Below, piece by piece: positions 16,547 to 26,162 of a stretch of 64,000 nt of DNA. Made by a program: the position numbers and the translations under genes. Every line of letters starts with the position of its first letter. The stretch's first letter is position 1. Origin of the DNA: Alphaproteobacteria bacterium (GTDB taxonomy: Bacteria; Pseudomonadota; Alphaproteobacteria; GCA-2731375); NCBI GenBank assembly GCA_965232515.1, contig CBDDPY010000002.1:4640001-4704000 (forward strand), written 5' to 3'. Under the pieces are notes generated by a model. That model searched no databases. It was not told the DNA's origin and worked only from the letters and a program-made list of their open reading frames with translations.

Positions 16547-18181
16547 TCATCCATGTCGCGCGAACTTGAGATGGCAATCGTTCAGTCGGCCTTCGGCGGT
16601 CGTTCCGTGGGCGGCGAGATTGGTGTTCAGCGCGAACGCCTGACCGCGTTCCTCGAACTGGAGATCAATGACGCCGTTCTTGCCGACGCTGGTCTCAAAG
16701 ATCCGCTCCGGCGTCGGTGTCCATTCCCCCGACCGCTTGATCTTGGCCGTCGCCTTCGGTCCGTTGACGTCGAGCGCGAGGTCGAAGAAGACCTTTGTTG
16801 TCTGGCTTATCATGTCGGCAATCTGGCAGACGCCATATGCCTGCCACGTGCCGTCGTAAGGTGATGTCGTTGACCCCGATCGTTCGTTCGCGACCGGTTC
16901 CGGCGCGTTGGCGATCCGGGTGCGTGCCGTGTCGGCGTGACGGCCGTCGGGAAAGGCTTCCAGATAGGCACGGTAGCCGACGGTCGCCTCGCCGGTTTCG
17001 GCGACGTTCCAAAGGCCGTCGTCGTCCTGTGCCGCAGGATCGGCGCGCGCGAGCGCTTTTTCGACCTCATCGATCAAGGCGCGGGCCGTCAGTGCATGCC
17101 GGCCTTGCGGATGGTTTTCGAGATAGCTGCGAAACGCCGCCAGCGTGCCGATCTCCGAGGCGATCCGCCACGCCGCCTCTTCGGCCTCGTCGCGAACCCG
17201 GAGTTGATCGAGGCGTGCCGAGGCGAGCGGCGCAAATCGGCCCGACGGATAGGTGTCGAGGTAAGCCGTGTAGTCACTGGCGCTGCGGCTGTTGCTGATC
17301 GAATCCCAGAAGGCCAGCTCCACGGCCATGTCATTGTCCGGTTCCCGCGCGACGGCGACTTTTTGGGCCGCCTGATCCAGCTGGACCGTCGGTATGAACA
17401 GGAATTCTCCGCCTTCATGGCTGGCCCGACGGATCTCCGAATACTGCGGCGTCTGGTCGGCATTGACGACGACCTGGCGGCTGACCTGCAGGAACAGCTC
17501 GTCCCCGTCGAGGATGTTGTTGTTCTCGCGCAGAGCGCGGAGAAAGGCATTGGCGAAGGTCGAATGGCCGTTGGCGCCGGCGTCCGTCACCGGCTCAAGG
17601 CCGCCGGAAACAAGCGCGGTGCGCGACCGCCGCCCGGCGACGCGCTTGATCCAGGCCTGCCGTTCGAACCCGGTCGCGGGCCGCGCCCTGGCGGTCCGGA
17701 CCAGGGTGCCCGAGAAGCAGCTATCGGCGACGACGATGACGTGCCGCGCGGTCATGCCCTTGAGGCGGCGCGTGAGCGCATCGTTCGCGATCCAGTTCAG
17801 GTCGTTCTCGGGTTCGGCATCGACCGGTAGCCAATAACCCATGCCTGTTTCGCGCTCGAGCGTTCCATGGCCGGCATAGTAGATCAGCAAATTATCGCGC
17901 TCGGTCAGCTCGGCCCGCAGACGGTTGATGGAGCGAAGAGTGTCTTCGCGGGTCGCGTTGTGCAGCAGCGTCACGGTGAAGCCGTATTTGACCCGGAGCA
18001 GCTCGGCTGTCGCCGTCGCGTCGTTGACGGCCGTCTCCAGCTTGGGCAAGTGCTTGTAATCGTTGTTCCCGATGACGAGCGCGTGGTAACGGCCGAATTC
18101 TACATCTTGGACCGCAAGACTCGGGCGTGATAGATAGCAAAAGAGGCATATGATCGCCGCCGCGATCGAAAATATTCGCAT
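16547..18181 (-). CDS. Secreted caspase-family (peptidase C14) protein with helical repeats
   Basis: ALVIGNNDY, YYAGHG and ADSCFSG (His-Cys dyad); three AYL..(Y/H/F)P.G repeats. Confidence 0.88.
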   Translation of the reverse strand: MRIFSIAAAIICLFCYLSRPSLAVQDVEFGRYHALVIGNNDYKHLPKLETAVNDATATAELLRVKYGFTVTLLHNATREDTLRSINRLRAELTERDNLLIYYAGHGTLERETGMGYWLPVDAEPENDLNWIANDALTRRLKGMTARHVIVVADSCFSGTLVRTARARPATGFERQAWIKRVAGRRSRTALVSGGLEPVTDAGANGHSTFANAFLRALRENNNILDGDELFLQVSRQVVVNADQTPQYSEIRRASHEGGEFLFIPTVQLDQAAQKVAVAREPDNDMAVELAFWDSISNSRSASDYTAYLDTYPSGRFAPLASARLDQLRVRDEAEEAAWRIASEIGTLAAFRSYLENHPQGRHALTARALIDEVEKALARADPAAQDDDGLWNVAETGEATVGYRAYLEAFPDGRHADTARTRIANAPEPVANERSGSTTSPYDGTWQAYGVCQIADMISQTTKVFFDLALDVNGPKATAKIKRSGEWTPTPERIFETSVGKNGVIDLQFEERGQAFALNTNLAAHGTTAEGRLNDCHLKFARHG

Positions 18182-18514
18182 GACTAACGCATCGTGTTAT
18201 TGCGGGAGGATTTGGTATTTTTTCGAGTTCCGCCAATTGTATTTGGCTTAGTGCTATATGATGCTTTCGAACGCGTGTCATATCTGTGAGAAATCAATGT
18301 GAAAGGCCGAGCGCATTCTTGATCGACGGGCGCCGATGGAAGGCGCTGCGGCAGTTCGGATGCGGCTGACCTTTTTCATGCAAATCCGGCGGCAATTTCA
18401 CCGGTTTGTGATGCATTTCACACGGTTCGTCAGCCTGCATCCGTAGATATGAGGGGTCGTGAACCCGCTGTCGGGTCCGACTGCGTGCCGTGCCTGGGCA
18501 ATAGGGGCTGCATT

Positions 18515-19312
18515 ATGAGTTACGACGACGATCGATATCGTAACGAGCTGCGCGAGGCGGATTTGCGCCGAGACGATCTGCGTCAGGATTTTCTTCGCCA
18601 GGAGTGTCTGTTGGACGATCTTCGCTTGGCCGACATTCGACAGGAGCAGATCGATTGGGAATTCCGCCGTGATGACGCCGCGCACGAGCAGCGAGCCGTG
18701 GAGGCCCGCCATGAACACGGCAAAGAGCCGGCGAGATCGGGCGATGTTTCGGGTTTGGCCGGACTATATGGGCTCGACTACCAGCCGGCATTGGCCGATC
18801 GCGACCGCGGGTTGGACCGGTTTCCAGCATTGACGTTGGCGAACATAGATCTGTTTCCGCTGAATGGTGTGACATTGGGCCAGACGACGATCGCTGAGCT
18901 GAGCCAGCTTGGCCAACGCTCGCGCTACATCGACGACCAGACCGGCGAGCCGTTTCGCTGTTATCAGGTGGGCGGCATCAATTTCTGGTATCTCGACGGC
19001 GATGTCGCAGACAGCGTGTTCTTGTCCCACGGCACGACGATTCCGGAGAAATGGCGGAAACTTGGATTTTCCTGGGTTCATTCCTTCGATCGCTACGGAG
19101 AGCTGTTGCGCACGCTCGGTTTCGACGTGGCTGTGACACGGGCGTCGACGACACGTTGGTTCTCGGGCCGGCGATCCTTCTCGGCGGAACTGGAAGGCCG
19201 GCGGAAAGGTCCCGTCGATCTGCGCATCAAATTGGACTTCGATTTCGGCGAGGGCACGACGGCGGAAGACATCGACACGCTGTATTCCATCGATGTGGCG
19301 ATTACCGAATAG
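18515..19312 (+). CDS. Hypothetical protein with periodic charged N-terminus
   Basis: Open frame, ATG at 18515; globular-looking C-terminal half. Confidence 0.65.
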   Translation: MSYDDDRYRNELREADLRRDDLRQDFLRQECLLDDLRLADIRQEQIDWEFRRDDAAHEQRAVEARHEHGKEPARSGDVSGLAGLYGLDYQPALADRDRGLDRFPALTLANIDLFPLNGVTLGQTTIAELSQLGQRSRYIDDQTGEPFRCYQVGGINFWYLDGDVADSVFLSHGTTIPEKWRKLGFSWVHSFDRYGELLRTLGFDVAVTRASTTRWFSGRRSFSAELEGRRKGPVDLRIKLDFDFGEGTTAEDIDTLYSIDVAITE

Positions 19313-20070: not shown

Positions 20071-21399
20071 TCAATTCGGATCCGTCCTGTTGCGCGGACC
20101 GCTGAATTCATAGGCACCGATGTCCGGATCGCCGTCGCGTCCGCGCAGCGCGCCGGCCGCGTCGCGCCGGACGGCGTCGGGAAGATGAACGCCGCGATCG
20201 ATCAATTCATGCGCCGTCGCGCGCAGACGCAGGTCGCGTTGTTGCGCATTCACGAATGTCCGCTCGGCCAGACCAATATCCAGCACGTGATTTTGACGCT
20301 TGTCGACCTGCATGCCGGCATGTGTTTCGATCGCATGGCCAAGAACGTTGTTCCGAATGGCGACGCGGCTGACGGCCTTTGGATTGCGGCCGTCAATGGC
20401 GACGAGGATCGACTGGCCATTGGCGAACAGCGTGTTGTGGTCGACGCGGCCGCCATCGACATTGACCACGGCGATGCCGATCTCGGTCGAATCGACGACA
20501 ACGTTGTTGACGACCCGTCCACCGATATGCCCAGGCGTCTCGAGGCCCTCGCCACCGAAGACGATGCCGATATGGCATCGCGCCACCCGGTTTCCGGCGA
20601 TCAGGGTTCCGGTTGATGCGCTCTTGAGCTGAATGCAAGCGCCACGGTCGAAGCGGGAATGGGATTGCTCGGTCGGGCGACGGATGTCGTGCAGGTGGTT
20701 GCCGATGATCTGGAACCGGTCGCAGCGATTGCAGTCGATGCCTTGAAAGTTCCCGCCGCCCGGATGACTCGTATGGAAGATCTCGTTTCCACGCAGGACG
20801 ATGTCTCGGGGCCGGTCCCGCGGGTCGCCGCTGCCCGAGCCTTTGATTTCGGCATGGCTGTTAAGGGGACGGCGCCGGTGGTTGTCAAAGATTCGGTTGC
20901 TATCGAGCGTGATATGCGCGGCGCCCCTGTCGAAGAACACGCCGTGATAACCCCCGCCCGTGATGTCGAGATGCCGGATTTCGATGTGCCGGGCGCGGCT
21001 GAACTTCACGGTGATGTTGGCGCCACGGCCATCGATGACGGCGCTGCCCGGCCCGTCGCGAGCCCGCAGCACGATCGGCGCATCGCGGCTGCCTGAATTG
21101 CCGTCGGTGAAGCGCAACGTGCCCCGATAGCGACCGGGCAGGATTTCGATGATGTCGCCAGGCCGCGCCTGCCCGATCGCCATCCGCAGCTGCGGCATCG
21201 TCGCAACGGTCACGGCAGTGTCCGCTTCGCCGGTGGCGACCGGCGTCGTCCCGATGGCAAGGGCGAGCAGAAATGGACCGCCAGCGCGAAGGCGTTGGTG
21301 AAGGTGTTTCGCGGATAGAAATCGATCCACGCTCGATCCCATTGCCATGCGGTGACCGCAACCGTTCGGCATGATGCGAATTAGGGCGGCGTTCGGCAA
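20071..21399 (-). CDS. Secreted right-handed beta-helix (pectate lyase-like) protein
   Basis: ARPGDIIEILPGRY, repeated I.GN.(I/L) strands, C-terminal PDIGAYE; start uncertain. Confidence 0.8.
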   Translation of the reverse strand: MPNAALIRIMPNGCGHRMAMGSSVDRFLSAKHLHQRLRAGGPFLLALAIGTTPVATGEADTAVTVATMPQLRMAIGQARPGDIIEILPGRYRGTLRFTDGNSGSRDAPIVLRARDGPGSAVIDGRGANITVKFSRARHIEIRHLDITGGGYHGVFFDRGAAHITLDSNRIFDNHRRRPLNSHAEIKGSGSGDPRDRPRDIVLRGNEIFHTSHPGGGNFQGIDCNRCDRFQIIGNHLHDIRRPTEQSHSRFDRGACIQLKSASTGTLIAGNRVARCHIGIVFGGEGLETPGHIGGRVVNNVVVDSTEIGIAVVNVDGGRVDHNTLFANGQSILVAIDGRNPKAVSRVAIRNNVLGHAIETHAGMQVDKRQNHVLDIGLAERTFVNAQQRDLRLRATAHELIDRGVHLPDAVRRDAAGALRGRDGDPDIGAYEFSGPRNRTDPN

Positions 21400-21854
21400 T
21401 CACATAGCCGGCTGGACTGTCGGCGCAGGATGGCCGCCTCGCCAGTCATGGCGATGGCGATGCTGAGTGCCAGGGTCGAGCGGCCCTGCGGGTTGCTGCG
21501 GTGGTACCGGAGCATGCGCGCCAGGCGCAGCAGGATATGCCGCGTCCAGTCCCGACCGATATCATTGTCTACGGTGAGCAGATCGCGATCGAGATGTTGC
21601 GGCCACAACGGCGGCAGGTCGCGCGCTCGGTCGTAGAATGCAGCCGCGGCGCGGATGCGTCGCTTGCGCGCCGCCAGGCCCTGGGCGCGCGCCTGGGCGG
21701 AGGCGATGGCGACATGCGGCGAGACGCCGCGGCGCAGCAGACCTGAAACCAGTCCCGGATTTGGCGTCGGAACGGCAGCGTCGCCGTCCGAGGCCGTTTC
21801 CGGCGGATTGCCGTTCGTATCACGAGCGGCGGTGGCGGCGGTCTTGGTCATCAT
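21381..21854 (-). CDS. DUF6477-like protein
   Basis: RIRAAAAFYDRARDLPPL motif resembles DUF6477 (recognition from memory). Confidence 0.55.
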   Translation of the reverse strand: MMTKTAATAARDTNGNPPETASDGDAAVPTPNPGLVSGLLRRGVSPHVAIASAQARAQGLAARKRRIRAAAAFYDRARDLPPLWPQHLDRDLLTVDNDIGRDWTRHILLRLARMLRYHRSNPQGRSTLALSIAIAMTGEAAILRRQSSRLCDCRTPP

Positions 21855-21878
21855 TGGCCCCCCGGCAGCGTCAAGGCA

Positions 21879-22313
21879 TCAGGCGTGGATGGCGACGACG
21901 CTTTGGCTCGACGAAACGGCGCGCCGATCAAGCGTGCGGCGTAGATAGCCCTGCAGGCAGGAAATCACGCCTGCTTTCGTCCCGTCATGGTGCGGGCTGG
22001 GATCGTCGAACACTCGCCAGGGGATGCCGAGGGTAGTGGCAACGCGTTTCATCACCTGCGGGGAAACGGCGATCGGCGAGCGGTGGCGCGGCAGATCGAT
22101 GTCCGGATTATCCTGCAGAAAATCGGCACGCAGTTCGGGATCGGCGAGAAAATGACCGCAGGCGCAGCCGGGCGTGCCGCAGAAATGAAAGACGAATGCA
22201 TGGTCGTAGGTCTCGGACCGCTCGATGGTGGCAATCAGTCGTTGCAGTCGTTGGCGGCGTCGGATGCTCTCGGGATCGATGTTTGGAATGTCGCGAGGGT
22301 CGATCATTCGCAT
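21879..22313 (-). CDS. Hypothetical phage-like protein
   Basis: HFCGTPGCACGH motif; first gene after the leftward operator/promoter. Confidence 0.6.
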   Translation of the reverse strand: MRMIDPRDIPNIDPESIRRRQRLQRLIATIERSETYDHAFVFHFCGTPGCACGHFLADPELRADFLQDNPDIDLPRHRSPIAVSPQVMKRVATTLGIPWRVFDDPSPHHDGTKAGVISCLQGYLRRTLDRRAVSSSQSVVAIHA

Positions 22314-22466
22314 GAGGCAGGTTTCCCATTCTTGCGCTGCTGTTCCGGCGCCGGCGCGTTTTCGTCGCACGTGCGCCGCTGAATAGCTGGCCGCATTGGT
22401 GTGGCCGATCTATGGCCGTTGCGTGGCGGCAAGATGCCCGTCCCGGTTTCGGGCGGCTGTGATATA

Positions 22467-22516
22467 TGTGTAGCATAGTTATGCGGTATACGCAAATGAT
22501 AATCGCATAATTATGC
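22467..22516 (-). promoter_or_regulatory. Leftward promoter with two repressor operators (OL-like)
   Basis: GCATAGTTATGC 22473-22484 and GCATAATTATGC 22505-22516; minus-strand TTGCGT (22495-22490)-17 nt-TACACA (22472-22467) with the first operator inside the spacer. Confidence 0.7.
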
Positions 22517-22585
22517 GTTATTGAGTTCCAGATATCGCGCGCGCCGCGTGACGGCGGCACGCGTCAGGACTGAATCGGGAGAGAT

Positions 22586-23188
22586 CTATCGCCGTCTGGG
22601 CTTGTAGACCCAGCGGACGACGGCGCCGTTGCGGATAATCACATCTTCGATTTCGGGCGCGTTGTACGAAGCCAGGCTGAACAGGCCCGGCCGGGTTCCG
22701 CGGCGGACCTGTTTCAGAAACCTTCGGCCGTCGTTGAGCTCGACGATACAGTCTTCACCAAGCAGTTCACTGAGGTCCTGCACCGGAATCTCGTCGAAGA
22801 AGATGATGTCGCGGTCCTTGTAAACGGGATACATGGACTGCCCGCGAATGATCGCGGCCTCGGTGCCGACGGGACCTTCTGCCTCGTCGATGCCGTCCGC
22901 ATCATCGAGAGCGAACACCTCTTCGCCGGCTCCGACATAGAACTTCACTTTCACGACCCCAAATGCGCTTTCCTCGCCCAGCAGAGCAGCGACAGAAACG
23001 CCTTGCTGCCGCGCCAGCTTTTCCAAGACTCGGGTCGAAAGAGAGTCGGATAGTCCGTTCAGGAAGTTCCTGATTGCGCCCTCACTGACCCCCGCCGCGT
23101 CGGCCCACGGCTTGTTCTTGAGCTGCCTTCTCTGCATGAACCGGCGCAGAGCGGCACGCCTTCGTTCGGCTTCAATGTTAGCGGACAT
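22586..23188 (-). CDS. CI/LexA-like repressor (XRE HTH + peptidase S24)
   Basis: WADAAGVSEGAIRNFLNG HTH; VGAG cleavage site, RGQSMYP catalytic Ser, FLKQV catalytic Lys, LASYN. Confidence 0.9.
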   Translation of the reverse strand: MSANIEAERRRAALRRFMQRRQLKNKPWADAAGVSEGAIRNFLNGLSDSLSTRVLEKLARQQGVSVAALLGEESAFGVVKVKFYVGAGEEVFALDDADGIDEAEGPVGTEAAIIRGQSMYPVYKDRDIIFFDEIPVQDLSELLGEDCIVELNDGRRFLKQVRRGTRPGLFSLASYNAPEIEDVIIRNGAVVRWVYKPRRR

Positions 23189-23211
23189 AGTGAAGGAAAC
23201 AATAGGCGGGT

Positions 23212-23280
23212 GCGCATAATTATGCGCTAGCATATTTATGCGAAATATCGGTTGAAATCGCATTTATATGCGATTATTTC
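23212..23280. promoter_or_regulatory. Divergent promoter region with three repressor operators (OR-like)
   Basis: GCGCATAATTATGCGC perfect palindrome 23212-23227; GCATATTTATGC 23230-23241; GCATTTATATGC 23260-23271, inside the TTGAAA (23252)-17 nt-TATTTC (23275) spacer. Confidence 0.75.
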
Positions 23281-23287
23281 TTTCGTC

Positions 23288-23929
23288 ATGATAGCGAATC
23301 AATCGGTATCCCAGCCATCACCTGCAAATTCGGACCCGATCGCCCGTGGATCGTCCGCGGAACCGGCGGACAACGGGCATGATCCATTCACGACCGTTGC
23401 CGCCGTGATCGCGTTGGAGCCGCGTCAATGTCGTTGGCCGAACGGTGTGCCTGGGCATTCGGGGTTCCATTTCTGCGGTGCGCGGACGGCCGTCGGCGAA
23501 AGCTATTGCGCGGAGCATCTGCGTCGATCCCTGCATCGCTCGGAGCGTCGGACGCCGGAAGCCTTGTATCGCTTGAACAGGGCGCAGCAAGCCGCCGTCA
23601 TGGATGGCGGTCGATCGGACGCCCTTGCCGTTCCGGCAGAGACAAAGACGACGACATCCCGATCGCGGCTTCAGCGACAGCCGCGACAATCCGACGTCAA
23701 TCCGCCGGTTCCGCAGCAGAAGCTGGCACGCGGTGTGCTGCAGCGTCAGTTGTTCGACTTTCTCAGGCGACAGCCTCGCGGGGTCGATCTCGCACCGGCC
23801 CGCGACATCGCGCAGCAACTGGACTTGAAACCGGAAACCGTGCGCGGCCAGCTCAGCCGGTTCGAGGCGCGGGGTTGGATCCGGCGCCAACCGTTCGATC
23901 TGCTGCACGATCCCACTGCCGCGACGTGA
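23288..23929 (+). CDS. GcrA C-terminal-type Cys/His domain fused to a C-terminal winged HTH
   Basis: CRWPNG...FHFCG...YCAEH followed by ARDIAQQLDLKPETVRGQLSRFEARGWIRR. Confidence 0.75.
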   Translation: MIANQSVSQPSPANSDPIARGSSAEPADNGHDPFTTVAAVIALEPRQCRWPNGVPGHSGFHFCGARTAVGESYCAEHLRRSLHRSERRTPEALYRLNRAQQAAVMDGGRSDALAVPAETKTTTSRSRLQRQPRQSDVNPPVPQQKLARGVLQRQLFDFLRRQPRGVDLAPARDIAQQLDLKPETVRGQLSRFEARGWIRRQPFDLLHDPTAAT

Positions 23930-23937
23930 GCCGGACG

Positions 23938-24132
23938 ATGTTGTCATCATTGCTCGGCAAACGCGCCGGCCAGAGCCCGGCCACCGCCGAAGATATCCGT
24001 GAGATGGCCCAGCGCGCCTGGCGTCAGAAGGGACTGGCGCTGATCGATCCGGCCGATGTGCCGGACCCGTTCGCGCGCCAGGCCATCATCAACGAAGCCG
24101 AACGCCTCTATGGCGAACGATTGGAGGCGTAG
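23938..24132 (+). CDS. Small phage-type hypothetical protein (64 aa)
   Basis: MLSSLLGK...MAQRAWRQKGLALIDP...RQAIINEAERLYG; ATG 8 nt after the upstream stop. Confidence 0.7.
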   Translation: MLSSLLGKRAGQSPATAEDIREMAQRAWRQKGLALIDPADVPDPFARQAIINEAERLYGERLEA

Positions 24133-24204
24133 GGACGTGGGCGAAAGCGAGCAATTCCGGCTGATGCCCCGGGGCGCCTGTCATGCGGACGACGGAGCAT
24201 CGGC

Positions 24205-24861
24205 ATGAAAGCTGGCGCAGACAGGCCGCGACGGCCGGGCAACGCGAACCTCGATACGGCCACCGATGAGCGGGTTTCGCGCGCATCCGCTGCGGCCGAG
24301 AAGATCCGACGGGACGACCGGGCGCGTCAGAAACGATCCGATGAGATGACGCCGCTCGACTGGCGGGCACGGCACGATCCGCTGGGCGGCAAGCAGCGCG
24401 CCGTCGTCCGCCACGGCCTGACCATGGCGGACGCTCACGGCACGATTTCGCACCCGCACCGGGTCTTCGACACGCTGGCCGCGCTGCATCGCCGCGGCGC
24501 CATCGACGATCCGGCCTATGCCGCCGGCGAGCGCTTTCGAAACGACTGGGAACGGGCGCATCTCGACCCCTTGCATTCGCCGGCGCTGGATCGGGTGCTG
24601 GGCGCCAGTGGGGGTGGTGGCGAGCACATTTCCGAACGGGCGGCGCGGGCGCGTGACGAAATCTGGCAGGCGTTGCAGGCGCTGGGCGGTCATGCCACGC
24701 CGATCGGCTCGGCCGCCTGGCACGTTCTCGGCTTTGGCCTAACGATAAAGGACTTCGCCGGCCGGACCCAACTCGGCCAAGGACGCGCGCTTGACGAACG
24801 TACGGCGCGGGGGCTGGTGATCGGCGCCTGCTGCGTGCTGGCCGGCCATTACGGGACGTGA
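24205..24861 (+). CDS. DUF6456-like protein (phage late regulator / GafA-GafZ-like domain)
   Basis: DTLAALHRRGAIDDPAYAAGERFRNDWERA, AAWHVLGFGLTI and LAGHYG C-terminus. Confidence 0.7.
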   Translation: MKAGADRPRRPGNANLDTATDERVSRASAAAEKIRRDDRARQKRSDEMTPLDWRARHDPLGGKQRAVVRHGLTMADAHGTISHPHRVFDTLAALHRRGAIDDPAYAAGERFRNDWERAHLDPLHSPALDRVLGASGGGGEHISERAARARDEIWQALQALGGHATPIGSAAWHVLGFGLTIKDFAGRTQLGQGRALDERTARGLVIGACCVLAGHYGT

Positions 24862-24899
24862 TATGCAATCCCGTCTTTTGGTCTGACGGAGTTGCCGGC

Positions 24900-25118
24900 A
24901 TGAAGGTGACGATCGAATACTGCGTCCAGTGAAACTACGAACCGAATGCTCTCCGTGCGAGGGACCGGCTGGTGGAGAAGGCGGGCGCCGAGGTTGAGTT
25001 CATCAAATCCGGCGGCGGTGTTTTCGAGATCACCGTGGACGGCGCCTTGCGGTTCTCGAAGAAGCAGCTCGGCCGTTTTCCGACCGACGAAGAGGTCGAT
25101 GCGCTGATACCCAACTGA
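24900..25118 (+). CDS. SelT/SelW/SelH (Rdx) family selenoprotein, 72 aa, Sec at TGA 24930-24932
   Basis: MKVTIEYCVQ-U-NYEPNALRA...SGGGVFEITVDGALRFSKKQLGRFPTDEEV: CxxU plus the GVFEI/FSK/RFP family motifs across an in-frame UGA. Confidence 0.9.
24933..24975 (+). promoter_or_regulatory. Candidate bacterial SECIS element
   Basis: ctctc (24949-24953)/gaggg (24959-24963) stem with a G-containing loop just 3' of the UGA; lower stem imperfect. Confidence 0.45.
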
Positions 25119-25166
25119 TCCGTTTGGCGATAGGACGGCGAACGCCGAGTGACGATGCCGGCGCAA

Positions 25167-26162
25167 TCAGCCGGTGGTGCGTCTGATGCCGTGCCATTCC
25201 TGTCGCGTCCACTCGACGCAGGCGATGCTCTGCTCGAAGAGCGAATAGCGGCAGCCTTCACCGTAATCGAGGTTCGGGATGAACTCGGTCGAGATCTGAC
25301 CGAGTTGGCCGTCCGGATCGTCGGCGTGGTGGCGCAACAGGTGACGGATCGCCTCCTTCCACGGCGCCAGCGCTTCTTCGTCCCAGTCGGCGTGGTACTC
25401 GCCGGGCCCGGGTCGTTTGAACGGATACTGGATGCCGCGGCCGGGCCGGCCCTGATCGTCGCGGGCCATGGTGTTCTTCGGGTTGTTGGGCACGGCGGCC
25501 CGCGCATGGCAATGGCGCACCCAGCCGGCGTCGATCCATTCGTCGATGACGTTGCCCGGATGAAACGGATTCAACACCAGCTCGCCGGCTTCGACGGCTG
25601 GCCGGATGTTCTGGACGTCCTGTTCTTTGGGGTTGTCGATCTTGAAGATGACGTGGCTGTGGTCGAGCGTCATGTGGAATGGCGCGCCGGCCGCTTCGAC
25701 GGCGCGCGCGACGTCGCCGACGCGGCGGAAATCCTCCGACCACATGTTGACGTGCACCTCGAAGCACGGGGTTACGCCGTATTTCTGTCCGAGCTCGTGG
25801 AATGACAGATAGGTTTCAACGACGCGCTCATTGCTGACCAACTCGTTGTCGGCGTCATAGGTCATGATCTGCGTGTTGTGCACCAGCGAGCCGAGCTGTT
25901 TCGCCATCCGCAGGTTCTCTTCGAACAGCGGCTCGTCGCGCCCCAGCGTGTAGAACCAGCCGCCGGCGCGTACCGGCAGGTCGTATTTGGCGCTCGCCTC
26001 GAGAAACTGTTCCAGCTCGCCGGGTCCCGGCGTCTTGTCGACATAGTCGAAGACGCCGGCCTCTTTCACCATGCGGAACCGCGTGTCGATATCGGGCATC
26101 GGATCGGCATGGGTATGCTTGATGCCGTTGGTCTGAATGCCGAACAGCAGCTTGTCGGCCAT
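25167..26162 (-). CDS. Xylose isomerase-like TIM barrel protein
   Basis: FEVHVNMWSE, TLDHSH, HCHAR and STEFI metal-ligand motifs. Confidence 0.75.
   Translation of the reverse strand: MADKLLFGIQTNGIKHTHADPMPDIDTRFRMVKEAGVFDYVDKTPGPGELEQFLEASAKYDLPVRAGGWFYTLGRDEPLFEENLRMAKQLGSLVHNTQIMTYDADNELVSNERVVETYLSFHELGQKYGVTPCFEVHVNMWSEDFRRVGDVARAVEAAGAPFHMTLDHSHVIFKIDNPKEQDVQNIRPAVEAGELVLNPFHPGNVIDEWIDAGWVRHCHARAAVPNNPKNTMARDDQGRPGRGIQYPFKRPGPGEYHADWDEEALAPWKEAIRHLLRHHADDPDGQLGQISTEFIPNLDYGEGCRYSLFEQSIACVEWTRQEWHGIRRTTG

What the first reader, a model, noticed from the sequence alone, without database searches (positions are those of the whole stretch)
21381..24861. Stand-alone phage-derived genetic switch with no phage to control: candidate domesticated GTA/prophage regulator
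Seen: six tightly packed genes, [DUF6477-like]<-[Cys-motif ORF]<-[XRE-S24 repressor] and [GcrA-domain+wHTH]->[64-aa ORF]->[DUF6456-like], sit between ordinary chromosomal genes. No integrase, replication, terminase, capsid or lysis gene and no att repeat is visible. The repressor keeps its Ala-Gly site, catalytic Ser and catalytic Lys, all ORFs are open, and the operators are conserved, which is not what a decaying remnant looks like. Known (from memory): Caulobacter GTA is controlled by an XRE-S24 repressor (RogA) acting on GafYZ, and Rhodobacter GafA carries DUF6456 and neighbours a DUF6477 gene, in both cases away from the structural cluster. Inference: this is a minimal, possibly RecA-inducible switch acting in trans on a GTA or cryptic particle cluster, with an architecture (extra GcrA-like factor, two operator arrays) that differs from those two systems.
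Basis: partly seen in the sequence, partly recalled or inferred. Interest (0 to 1): 0.85.

Follow-up and report, generated by a model that had tools for sequence, protein, structure and literature searches.

The report
Phage-type genetic switch without a phage
A compact phage-style repressor-and-activator cassette sits in a bacterial chromosome that has no recognisable phage particle genes, is kept intact in a sister species, and probably switches on its own neighbouring genes after DNA damage rather than a gene transfer agent.

Summary
The six ORFs, the two operator arrays and the lack of phage structural genes are real. Five of the six domain labels hold: XRE+S24 repressor with Ala-Gly/Ser/Lys, GcrA sigma-interacting domain + winged helix, a 64-aa ORF, DUF6456 (GafZ/GafA family) and a Cys/His-motif ORF. 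The 'DUF6477-like' label failed HMM and profile tests. The layout is lambda-like: OL (2 sites) - repressor - OR (3 sites). The palindrome GCATAwwTATGC occurs exactly nowhere else in the 7.39 Mb genome. The sister species keeps all six genes in the same place, with dN/dS 0.05-0.35 and conserved operators, so this is not a decaying remnant. The GTA or particle target is not supported: no GTA_TIM, HK97 capsid, portal, tape measure or terminase (three Pfam families plus lambda-GpA by tblastn) was found. DUF6456 homologues elsewhere lie just upstream of terminase genes in prophages, or form similar stand-alone repressor/DUF6456 pairs in other genomes lacking HK97 capsids. Both arms probably run on into neighbours: a genus-specific secreted beta-helix protein on the left and an Rdx/SelW-like selenoprotein on the right. 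Best reading: a domesticated, probably RecA-inducible phage switch resembling RogA-GafYZ and AlpR-AlpA, with local or unknown non-particle outputs. New variant of a known kind; function untested.

The parts
20071..21372 (-). Possible passenger of the left arm: 433-aa right-handed beta-helix protein (Beta_helix/NosD) with a hydrophobic N-terminus
   Evidence: Pfam PF13229 1.8e-8 and NosD 4e-6. An in-frame ATG lies 8 nt after the g1 stop on the same strand (and sequence). Close orthologue only in G000 and G001 of 33 genomes of the order. No phage match. Co-transcription is inferred, not shown.
21381..21854 (-). g1: 157-aa protein of a very small unnamed helical family (not DUF6477)
   Evidence: No Pfam, PHROG or NCBIfam family. 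Two paralogues in the genome, one beside an XRE gene and one beside a tyrosine recombinase. 4 representatives among 1.84 billion proteins. AF2 pLDDT 79, helical, no fold match.
21879..22313 (-). g2: 144-aa Cys/His-motif protein (longest ORF runs to 22370)
   Evidence: No family. 7 relatives with invariant H38, H43, C45, C50, C52, H54. Found in 2 of 33 genomes of the order. AF2 pLDDT 73.7; best VIA Z 4.9.
22314..22470 (-). Conserved ~160-nt leader between the left operators and g2
   Evidence: Aligned with the G001 copy in A2 (85% mean column identity over 326 columns), with a long near-identical central stretch. A 2-nt insertion at 22443 in a close strain argues that it is non-coding. No Rfam family. 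Function unknown.
22473..22516 (.). OL-like operator array: two palindromes GCATAGTTATGC and GCATAATTATGC, 32 nt apart
   Evidence: Both sites kept in G001 with changes only in the central bases.
22586..23188 (-). g3: CI/LexA-type repressor, XRE HTH + Peptidase S24 with Ala-Gly, Ser and Lys (longest ORF runs to 23263)
   Evidence: 96% amino-acid identity to G001 and dN/dS 0.046.
23214..23271 (.). OR-like operator array: three palindromes (23214, 23230, 23260) in the divergent promoter region
   Evidence: The region is 91% identical in G001, against 79% for the whole block. A promoter-like site on the minus strand at 23302-23273.
23288..23929 (+). g4: 213-aa GcrA sigma-70-interacting domain (no GcrA DNA-binding domain) fused to a C-terminal winged helix
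   Evidence: 8 relatives at 57-100% identity, all with PF07750 and 7 of 8 with a winged-helix family.
23938..24132 (+). g5: 64-aa protein, phrog_19772
   Evidence: A homologue lies directly upstream of the DUF6456 gene in an unrelated stand-alone module, L030.
24205..24861 (+). g6: DUF6456 protein of the GafZ/GafA family, a putative Q-like late-gene antiterminator
   Evidence: Pfam 32.3 bits, above cut-off 26.3. Homologues sit upstream of GpA-type terminases in prophages and in phage AcaML1 as gp20. 89-91% identity to G001 and dN/dS 0.12.
24900..25118 (+). Possible passenger of the right arm: Rdx/SelW-like gene with an in-frame TGA at CxxU
   Evidence: Rdx family, 62 bits, when TGA is read as U. 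39 nt after the g6 stop, same strand. tRNA-SeC is present in the genome. Follows g6 in G001 too.

Best explanation
This is a domesticated remnant of the regulatory core of a temperate phage, laid out like the lambda immunity region.

Parts: a CI/LexA-type repressor (g3) sits between two arrays of its palindromic operator, GCATAwwTATGC.

Proposed sequence of events:
1. While g3 is bound, it shuts off a leftward unit (g2, g1 and probably the beta-helix gene) and a rightward unit (g4, g5, g6 and probably the Rdx selenoprotein gene).
2. DNA damage (RecA filament) would trigger self-cleavage of g3 at its Ala-Gly site and open both units.
3. g4 would tether sigma-70 RNA polymerase to DNA through its GcrA-type sigma-interacting domain and its own winged helix.
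4. g6, a GafZ/Q-like factor, would make the polymerase read through terminators.

Because the genome has no particle genes, the output is not a phage or a GTA. The outputs are the cassette's own passenger genes and perhaps unknown distal host genes.

Shown here: the gene and domain content, the operators, the conservation and purifying selection, and the absence of the structural-gene families searched.
Inferred: repression by g3 at these sites, RecA induction, the activator and antiterminator roles, and co-transcription of the neighbours.
For: Architecture and domains.

Operators:
- 5 sites against 0.16 expected.
- Exact sites occur only in the cassette across 7.39 Mb. The 11 one-mismatch sites outside it are scattered singles.
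- They are conserved in G001.

Selection:
- All six ORFs are intact and syntenic in G001.
- dN/dS values: g3 0.046, g6 0.12, g2 0.16, g5 0.27, g4 0.33, g1 0.35, flank 0.29, at dS 0.43-0.70.
- 7-8 metagenomic relatives of g1, g2 and g4 keep length and domains.

Phage ancestry of g6:
- DUF6456 genes lie upstream of GpA terminases in L028, L029, L036 and L038.
- gp20 of phage AcaML1 is a homologue.
- GafZ is an antiterminator and GafY contacts sigma-70 (PMC11150451, Introduction and Discussion read).

No particle genes found.

The same logic recurs: S24 repressor divergent from a DUF6456 gene in L030, L031, L059 and L063. L063 also has a GcrA-SID gene and a small gene before DUF6456.

Tight same-strand junctions to the beta-helix gene (8 nt) and the Rdx gene (39 nt).
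Against: - No experiment or usable expression data. Contigs from RNA libraries cover the cassette and its flanks alike at depth 2-9, so they say nothing about regulation and may be DNA.
- No terminator or GafZ-binding element was identified for g6 to act on. The terminator scan gave 5 sites against 3.1 expected, two of which are the operator palindromes themselves.
- Co-transcription with the beta-helix and Rdx genes rests only on spacing and strand.
- g1 and g2, the most likely effectors, have no recognisable function.
- The region has lower GC3 (0.67-0.78) than several nearby genes (0.84-0.85), so the acquisition may be fairly recent. Only one other species-level genome with the cassette could be compared.
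Confidence: 0.55

Rival explanations
1. One reading: the switch acts in trans on a GTA or cryptic particle cluster elsewhere in the genome, as RogA-GafYZ does in Caulobacter.
For: - g6 belongs to the GafZ/GafA family.
- In Caulobacter and Rhodobacter, GTA regulators lie away from the structural cluster (PMC9632790 and PMC11150451, passages and sections read).
- An island at about 4.25 Mb holds a g1 paralogue and large ORFs without any family.
Against: - The genome has no GTA_TIM, HK97 capsid, PF04860 portal, tape measure, or PF03237, PF03354 or PF04466 terminase. The control genomes rang in every one of these searches.
- No lambda-GpA terminase, portal or capsid by tblastn.
- The only sheath hit is below cut-off and has no tail neighbours.
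- G001 also lacks PF05065.
- In the order, GTA_TIM passes its cut-off in 1 of 33 genomes.
Confidence: 0.06
2. The cassette is a trans-acting regulator of ordinary, non-particle host genes at distal promoters. The precedent is AlpA of Pseudomonas, which acts on alpBCDE and also on the distal ampDh3.
For: - g4 and g6 both carry their own DNA-binding domains, distinct from the repressor's.
- DUF6456 genes persist in 7 of 33 genomes of the order, and 6 of those 7 have no HK97 capsid.
- In genus g4 they stand in conserved chromosomal context without a neighbouring repressor.
- AlpA precedent: abstracts of PMC7969949 and PMC9998450 (search listing).
Against: - No target motif or regulon could be derived.
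- The operator is strictly local.
- No other part of the cassette's DNA recurs in the genome except the g1 paralogues.
Confidence: 0.2
3. The cassette is kept as a defence. The repressor gives immunity against related incoming phages that carry the same operators, and the early and late regulators could mis-time their gene expression.
For: - g3 is by far the most constrained gene: 96% identity and dN/dS 0.046, against 0.12-0.35 for the others.
- The operators are conserved.
- Related phages with DUF6456 late regulators exist in the class.
Against: - This does not explain purifying selection on g1, g2, g4 and g5.
- No phage or prophage carrying this operator or a close g3 relative was found. 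The metagenome scan gave 0 relatives, and the phage collection had no match for g1 or g4.
- The PADLOC library was not searched.
Confidence: 0.14
4. It is a neutral prophage remnant caught before decay.
For: - Lower GC and GC3 than much of the chromosome.
- Present only in genus g1 of the order.
- No integrase or att site is left.
Against: - Six of six ORFs are intact in two species separated by dS 0.43-0.70, with dN/dS 0.05-0.35, equal to or below the flanking gene.
- The operators are more conserved than the coding DNA: 91% against 79% for the block.
- Relatives of g4 down to 57% identity keep both domains.
Confidence: 0.05

Closest known systems
RogA-GafY-GafZ control of the Caulobacter GTA, and GafA of Rhodobacter
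   Same: An HTH+S24-type repressor controls an operon that ends in a DUF6456 (GafZ-family) factor. A second factor contacts sigma-70. The regulators are of phage origin but sit in the chromosome, away from any structural genes (PMC9632790, PMC11150451).
   Different: - Here the repressor is adjacent and divergent, and keeps Ala-Gly/Ser/Lys, whereas RogA lacks the catalytic residues.
- There are two operator arrays.
- The sigma-contacting partner is a GcrA sigma-interacting domain + winged helix, not a DnaA-domain-IV-like GafY.
- There is an extra 64-aa gene and a leftward operon.
- No GTA or any capsid or terminase was found in the genome.
Lambda immunity region (OL - cI - OR, cro, ... Q)
   Same: The repressor gene lies between two operator arrays, with divergent left and right units. 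The repressor is an autocleavable S24 type. A late-gene antiterminator-type gene closes the rightward unit. This comparison rests on textbook knowledge.
   Different: - There are no N, cII, replication, recombination, lysis or morphogenesis genes.
- The Q position is held by a DUF6456 protein.
- The first rightward gene is a 213-aa sigma-tethering protein rather than a small Cro.
- There are two operators on the left, not three.
AlpR-AlpA-alpBCDE and PrtR-PrtN of Pseudomonas aeruginosa
   Same: A phage-type repressor and a positive regulator without a phage, switched on by DNA damage. They control adjacent non-particle genes (alp) and a distal gene (ampDh3). Sources: abstracts in the listing. 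AlpR being LexA-like, and the whole PrtR-PrtN comparison, are recalled and come from no call.
   Different: AlpA is an unrelated antiterminator family. Its outputs are known lysis genes, whereas here the candidate outputs are unknown proteins, a beta-helix protein and a selenoprotein. No lysis gene was recognised.
GcrA cell-cycle regulator, and phage GcrA-like proteins
   Same: Residues 28-98 of g4 align with the GcrA chain in 5yix_B and with residues 82-154 of full-length GcrA. That this part of GcrA is the sigma-70-interacting domain is recalled. The genome has its own GcrA elsewhere. Phage GcrA-like genes are reported (listing).
   Different: The GcrA N-terminal DNA-binding part (profile positions 1-85) is absent. 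It is replaced by a C-terminal LexA/MarR-like winged helix.

Membership tests
LexA/CI-type autocleaving repressor (XRE HTH + Peptidase S24) | N-terminal HTH and C-terminal S24 domain above the Pfam cut-off | tested here: met
   PF00717 25.0 bits against 23.3. The HTH_26, HTH_3 and HTH_31 matches (E 4e-4 to 2e-3) are below their cut-offs. phrog_4 repressor 5e-16.
LexA/CI-type autocleaving repressor (XRE HTH + Peptidase S24) | Ala-Gly cleavage site, nucleophile Ser and general-base Lys | tested here: met
   VGAG; G88, S118-M119 and K159 are invariant columns in an alignment of 6 S24 repressors. The Ser-to-Lys spacing of 41 residues is close to that of LexA and CI (spacings recalled).
LexA/CI-type autocleaving repressor (XRE HTH + Peptidase S24) | RecA-stimulated self-cleavage and binding to the palindromic operators | not testable with these tools
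   Needs biochemistry. No PDB relative by sequence.
DUF6456 / GafZ-GafA family | Match to PF20057 above the gathering score | tested here: met
   32.3 bits against 26.3, covering profile positions 12-90 of 136. It is the single hit in the genome. The C-terminal HTH-like block is conserved in an 11-sequence alignment.
DUF6456 / GafZ-GafA family | Partner GafY (DnaA-domain-IV-like) or a fused N-terminal HTH, as in GafA | tested here: not met
   The upstream genes are a GcrA-SID+wHTH protein and a 64-aa protein. A true GafA in L043 carries HTH_38 + DUF6456 at 166.9 bits.
DUF6456 / GafZ-GafA family | Processive antitermination at a target promoter | not testable with these tools
   Known for Caulobacter GafZ (PMC11150451). 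No target element was identified here.
RcGTA-type gene transfer agent system | A head-tail cluster (HK97 capsid, portal, terminase, GTA_TIM) in the genome | tested here: not met
   0 matches for PF13547, PF05065, PF04860, PF03237, PF03354, PF04466 and PF10145. The control genomes rang in each search. The genome is 96.25% complete.
RogA | HTH + S24-like fold lacking the catalytic residues; located away from gafYZ | tested here: not met
   g3 keeps Ser, Lys and Ala-Gly and is adjacent to its target operon. RogA features are taken from PMC9632790 (passages). No direct sequence comparison with RogA was made.
GcrA | C-terminal sigma-70-interacting domain | tested here: met
   PF07750 47.5 bits against 26.9, profile positions 86-150. 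5yix_B at E 1.3e-8.
GcrA | N-terminal DNA-binding domain and full-length equivalence | tested here: not met
   Profile positions 1-85 are unmatched. The NCBIfam equivalog scored 40.1 bits against a cut-off of 280.
DUF6477 | Match of g1 to PF20083 or to a member of that family | tested here: not met
   - No hit at E<=0.1 in the protein or the genome.
- hhalign against a true member (115.6 bits) gave probability 2.9% over 26 columns.
- A profile search of 1.84 billion proteins found 4 relatives.
- A shared fold was not tested.
Lambda-like immunity region | Repressor gene flanked by two arrays of the same operator, with divergent units | tested here: met
   The arrays are 22473-22516 and 23214-23271, on either side of g3.

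The most novel reading that the evidence does not exclude
Autocleavable CI-type repressors paired with DUF6456 (GafZ-type) antiterminators form a recurrent DNA-damage-responsive regulatory cassette that is independent of GTAs. Alphaproteobacteria have domesticated it several times from lambda-like prophages. In this lineage it is wired to RNA polymerase through a GcrA sigma-interacting domain grafted onto a new DNA-binding domain. It now drives host-beneficial passenger genes: a secreted beta-helix enzyme, two unknown proteins and a selenoprotein. On this view it would be a living intermediate on the path that led to the RogA-GafYZ control of GTAs.
Probability: 0.25. Interest if true: 0.75.

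Novelty: new variant of a known kind. Interest (0 to 1): 0.6.

Why it matters
In the papers read here, GafA/GafZ regulators are treated as dedicated GTA activators that co-evolve with the head-tail cluster (PMC9765227, passages).

Here the same family appears in three settings:
- at the Q position of real prophages;
- next to cleavable CI-type repressors;
- as conserved stand-alone cassettes in genomes without capsid or terminase genes.

That offers a concrete origin for the GTA control circuit, namely a phage CI/Q module. It also implies that these regulators have jobs other than particle production. The GcrA sigma-interacting domain fused to a different DNA-binding domain is a natural domain swap that could be used to test how sigma-tethering activators work. 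The cassette is small and testable: one repressor, one operator sequence and two short operons.

Tried and rejected
Steps that gave nothing usable:
- One own-genome search used a wrong accession: PF20081 is DUF6475, not DUF6477. It was repeated with PF20083.
- ESM Atlas: g2 gave weak likeness (0.88-0.90) to unnamed, mostly viral clusters, which is a lead only. g1 gave no usable hit.
- Fold searches of AF2 models of g2 and g1 gave no Foldseek match at E<=0.001. The best VIA Z for g2 was 4.9. g1 was not sent to VIA, and neither model was searched against BFVD.
- PDB sequence search of g3 and g6 found nothing meaningful.
- Rfam on 20900-25300 gave only one chance-level hit.
- RNAalifold of the g2 leader used only 2 sequences, which is too few to judge.
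- The metagenome scan with g3 matched 398 pattern stretches, none of them a relative.
- Complex prediction of g5 with g6 returned no verdict (score 0.02, mark 0.32). It counts neither for nor against binding.
- Read laying: three RNA-library runs of one study (X4, X6, X7) hold a 95-99% identical strain at depth 2-9 over the cassette and flanks alike. The raw-read run X21 laid 0 reads. No conclusion on expression, strand or induction.
- The sub-threshold sheath hit at 0.49 Mb has ordinary neighbours.
- PHROG and Pfam scans of the 4.25 Mb island with the g1 paralogue found only an XRE and a ribbon-helix-helix gene. It was not annotated further.
- PADLOC was not searched.
- Supplementary files of the papers were closed. 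Tables of GafA/RogA homologues there might list this clade.

Full report
**What is there**

The window holds the six ORFs at the stated coordinates. I call them g1 to g6.
- g1, 21381-21854(-): 157 aa.
- g2, 21879-22370(-): most likely starts at the ATG at 22313, giving 144 aa, as in the database call P0020.
- g3, 22586-23263(-): most likely starts at 23188, giving 200 aa.
- g4, 23252-23929(+): most likely starts at the ATG at 23288, giving 213 aa, as in P0009.
- g5, 23938-24132(+): 64 aa.
- g6, 24205-24861(+): 218 aa.

Family scans:
- g3 is HTH + Peptidase_S24, above the Pfam cut-off, and matches phrog_4, 'transcriptional repressor'.
- g4 matches only the C-terminal part of the GcrA profile (positions 86-150) plus a LexA/MarR-like winged helix. 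It matches the solved GcrA chain 5yix_B and full-length GcrA. That this part of GcrA is the sigma-70-interacting domain is my recollection.
- g5 matches phrog_19772, of unknown function.
- g6 matches DUF6456 above the cut-off.
- g1 and g2 match nothing in Pfam, PHROGs or NCBIfam.

There is no hit at E<=0.1 in the protein or the whole genome. A profile-profile comparison with a true DUF6477 protein gave probability 2.9%. An exhaustive profile search found only 4 representatives of the g1 family among 1.84 billion proteins.

**The switch**

The palindrome GCATAwwTATGC occurs five times in the window against 0.16 expected. The sites form two arrays on either side of the repressor gene: 22473 and 22505; then 23214, 23230 and 23260. 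This is the lambda layout, OL - cI - OR, with one unit running left (g2, g1) and one running right (g4, g5, g6).

In the whole 7.39 Mb genome, exact sites occur only here. The 11 one-mismatch sites outside the cassette are scattered singles. The repressor's direct regulon therefore looks local.

Aligned with five other S24 repressors that neighbour DUF6456 genes, g3 keeps the Gly of Ala-Gly, the Ser-Met and the Lys as invariant columns. RecA-dependent self-cleavage is plausible but untested.

**Not a decaying remnant**

The only other species of the genus in the collection (G001, an 81%-complete assembly) carries all six genes on one contig with the same left neighbour. The same right neighbour lies on the adjoining contig.

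| gene | amino-acid identity to G001 | dN/dS |
|---|---|---|
| g3 | 96% | 0.046 |
| g6 | 89-91% | 0.12 |
| g2 | 79-81% | 0.16 |
| g5 | 81% | 0.27 |
| g4 | 65% | 0.33 |
| g1 | 72-80% | 0.35 |
| flanking beta-helix gene | 72% | 0.29 |

These values hold at dS 0.43-0.70.
- The OR region is 91% identical, against 79% for the whole block. All five operators keep their half-sites.
- Seven to eight further relatives of g1, g2 and g4 exist in metagenome assemblies. Some share contig lengths, which suggests shared contigs. All g4 relatives, down to 57% identity, keep PF07750, and 7 of 8 also a winged-helix family.
- Within the order (33 genomes, 8 genera), g2 is found only in this genus.

**No phage and no GTA to control**

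The flanks scanned encode MdoG, a caspase-domain protein, a PAS_5 protein, a beta-helix protein, an Rdx protein, a TIM-barrel protein, DUF2161, HlyIII and a copper amine oxidase.
- There is no tRNA within 35 kb.
- There is no flanking direct repeat beyond chance.

Genome-wide searches gave no match for GTA_TIM, HK97 capsid, PF04860 portal, tape measure, or terminase families PF03237, PF03354 and PF04466. The control genomes rang in each search.
- tblastn with the GpA-type terminase, portal and head proteins that neighbour g6 homologues elsewhere found nothing.
- A sheath-like hit is below cut-off and has ordinary neighbours.
- The genome is 96.25% complete and its chromosome is one 7.33 Mb contig.

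A structural cluster built only of unrecognised families cannot be excluded. A GTA of the known alphaproteobacterial kind can.

**Where the parts come from**

With g6 as query, 13 of 400 other genomes sampled across the class have a homologue.
- In four loci (L028, L029, L036, L038) the DUF6456 gene lies upstream of a GpA-type large terminase. In L028 and L029 it lies directly before the packaging and head genes, which is the position of lambda Q.
- The only phage-collection matches are three records of Acidithiobacillus phage AcaML1. There gp20 closes the early/replication block ahead of the methylases and terminase.
- This fits the published view that GafZ is a processive antiterminator (PMC11150451, Introduction and Discussion read). 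It also fits the claim that GafZ and GafA resemble Q21 in fold (bioRxiv 10.1101/2024.11.20.624540, passages).

Other homologues sit in cassettes much like this one. An XRE+S24 repressor lies divergent from a DUF6456 gene among metabolic genes in the following loci.
- L031 (G159).
- L030 (G086), which also has a g5 homologue.
- L059 (G007).
- L063 (G002). Here a 100-aa GcrA-domain gene and an 88-aa gene precede a g6 homologue of 44% identity.

An XRE-only version stands in G146 and G299.

G001, G086, G159, G073 and G088 have no HK97 capsid. In the order, 7 of 33 genomes have DUF6456 and 6 of those 7 have no HK97 capsid. GTA_TIM passes its cut-off in 1 of 33.

So the stand-alone repressor/DUF6456 pair recurs and is largely uncoupled from GTAs.

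**What it may control**

Both arms run straight into a further same-strand gene and end at convergent genes.
- Left arm: 8 nt after the g1 stop begins a 433-aa right-handed beta-helix protein with a hydrophobic N-terminus. Its close orthologue is found only in G000 and G001 of the 33 genomes. It has no phage match.
- Right arm: 39 nt after the g6 stop begins an Rdx/SelW-like gene with an in-frame TGA at the CxxU position. The genome has a tRNA-SeC.
- Between the left operators and g2 lies a conserved leader of about 160 nt. A close strain has a 2-nt insertion there, so it is probably non-coding. I consider it a candidate site for g6 action, but that is speculation.

g1 has two paralogues in the genome. 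One is divergent from a small XRE gene in a low-GC3 island. The other lies upstream of a tyrosine recombinase. It therefore belongs to mobile-element regulatory or recombination regions, but its function is unknown.

AF2 models of g1 (pLDDT 79, helical) and g2 (pLDDT 73.7) found no convincing fold relatives.

**Mechanism proposed**

Shown: the parts, the operators, the conservation and the absence of particle genes.

Inferred:
1. g3 dimers occupy OL and OR and silence both arms, and probably regulate g3 itself.
2. RecA* triggers cleavage of g3.
3. g4 recruits sigma-70 holoenzyme through the GcrA-type domain, with its own winged helix choosing the site. This is analogous to GafY contacting sigma-70 in Caulobacter (PMC11150451).
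4. g6 loads on the polymerase and suppresses termination.
5. The products are g2, g1, the beta-helix protein and the Rdx protein, and possibly distal genes.

The nearest functional analogues are RogA-GafYZ and the Pseudomonas AlpR-AlpA module. AlpA is a phage-type antiterminator that, after DNA damage, turns on adjacent autolysis genes and a distal amidase gene (abstracts in the listing). That AlpR is LexA-like is my recollection.

**Expression data**

Three RNA-library runs from one study contain contigs of a 95-99% identical strain. They cover the cassette and its flanks alike at low depth. One raw-read run had no reads. This shows a further close strain with the cassette's DNA, but nothing about regulation.

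**Verdict**

I rate it a new variant of a known kind. It has a CI/Q-type domesticated switch of the RogA-GafYZ and AlpR-AlpA sort. Three features are unusual: a cleavable adjacent repressor with dual operator arrays, a GcrA-domain/winged-helix fusion, and no particle genes in the genome. In the library searched, DUF6456 appears in two papers, both about GTAs, and DUF6477 in none. I searched for no other wording, so I cannot say that stand-alone cassettes are undescribed.

Noticed in passing
window 24900-25118 (+): Rdx/SelW-like gene with an in-frame TGA at the CxxU position (MKVTIEYCVQ-U-...). It scores 62 bits against the Rdx family when TGA is read as Sec. The genome has a tRNA-SeC at C2:5877476-5877571. 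This is probably a true selenoprotein that ORF callers would truncate to 48 aa.
   Followed up: partly
window 22314-22470 (-): Leader of about 160 nt upstream of g2, with a long near-identical central stretch between two species whose coding DNA is 73-90% identical. It has GC-rich hairpins, no Rfam family, and a 2-nt insertion at 22443 in a close strain. It may be a regulatory RNA or an antitermination target.
   Followed up: partly
G000:C2:4256485-4256814 (L008 5986-6315) and G000:C2:1368529-1369167 (L009 5730-6368): Two paralogues of g1, 61-67% identical over about 99 aa. One is divergent from a 77-aa XRE gene in a low-GC3 island with large ORFs of no known family. The other is a 212-aa form directly upstream of a Phage_integrase-family recombinase. 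A one-mismatch operator-like site lies 137 nt upstream of the second.
   Followed up: partly
L043 (G110:C34:87459-90740): A full-length GafA-like gene (381 aa, HTH_38 + DUF6456 at 166.9 bits) lies divergent from a DUF6477 gene (115.6 bits). This confirms the recalled GafA-DUF6477 adjacency in at least one genome.
   Followed up: yes
L060 (G004), L061 (G010), L062 (G013): In genus g4 of the same order, DUF6456 genes (28-42 bits in the genome search) stand without a neighbouring XRE/S24 repressor. In L060 and L061 they lie near large sensor-like proteins, and ClpS-like and D-Ala-D-Ala carboxypeptidase-like genes (named from reading the sequences, no family scan) recur in both loci. This may be another kind of domesticated GafZ relative.
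   Followed up: no
window 16547-19312: A 544-aa caspase-domain (Peptidase_C14) protein is followed by a low-GC stretch (0.54-0.59) with two overlapping ORFs of no known family (18398-18718 minus strand, 18449-19312 plus strand). Not examined further.
   Followed up: no
G000 contigs C3 (5516 bp) and C4 (10862 bp): Two small contigs have 42-46% GC, against 65.5% for the chromosome. They may be contaminants or a foreign element. Not examined.
   Followed up: no
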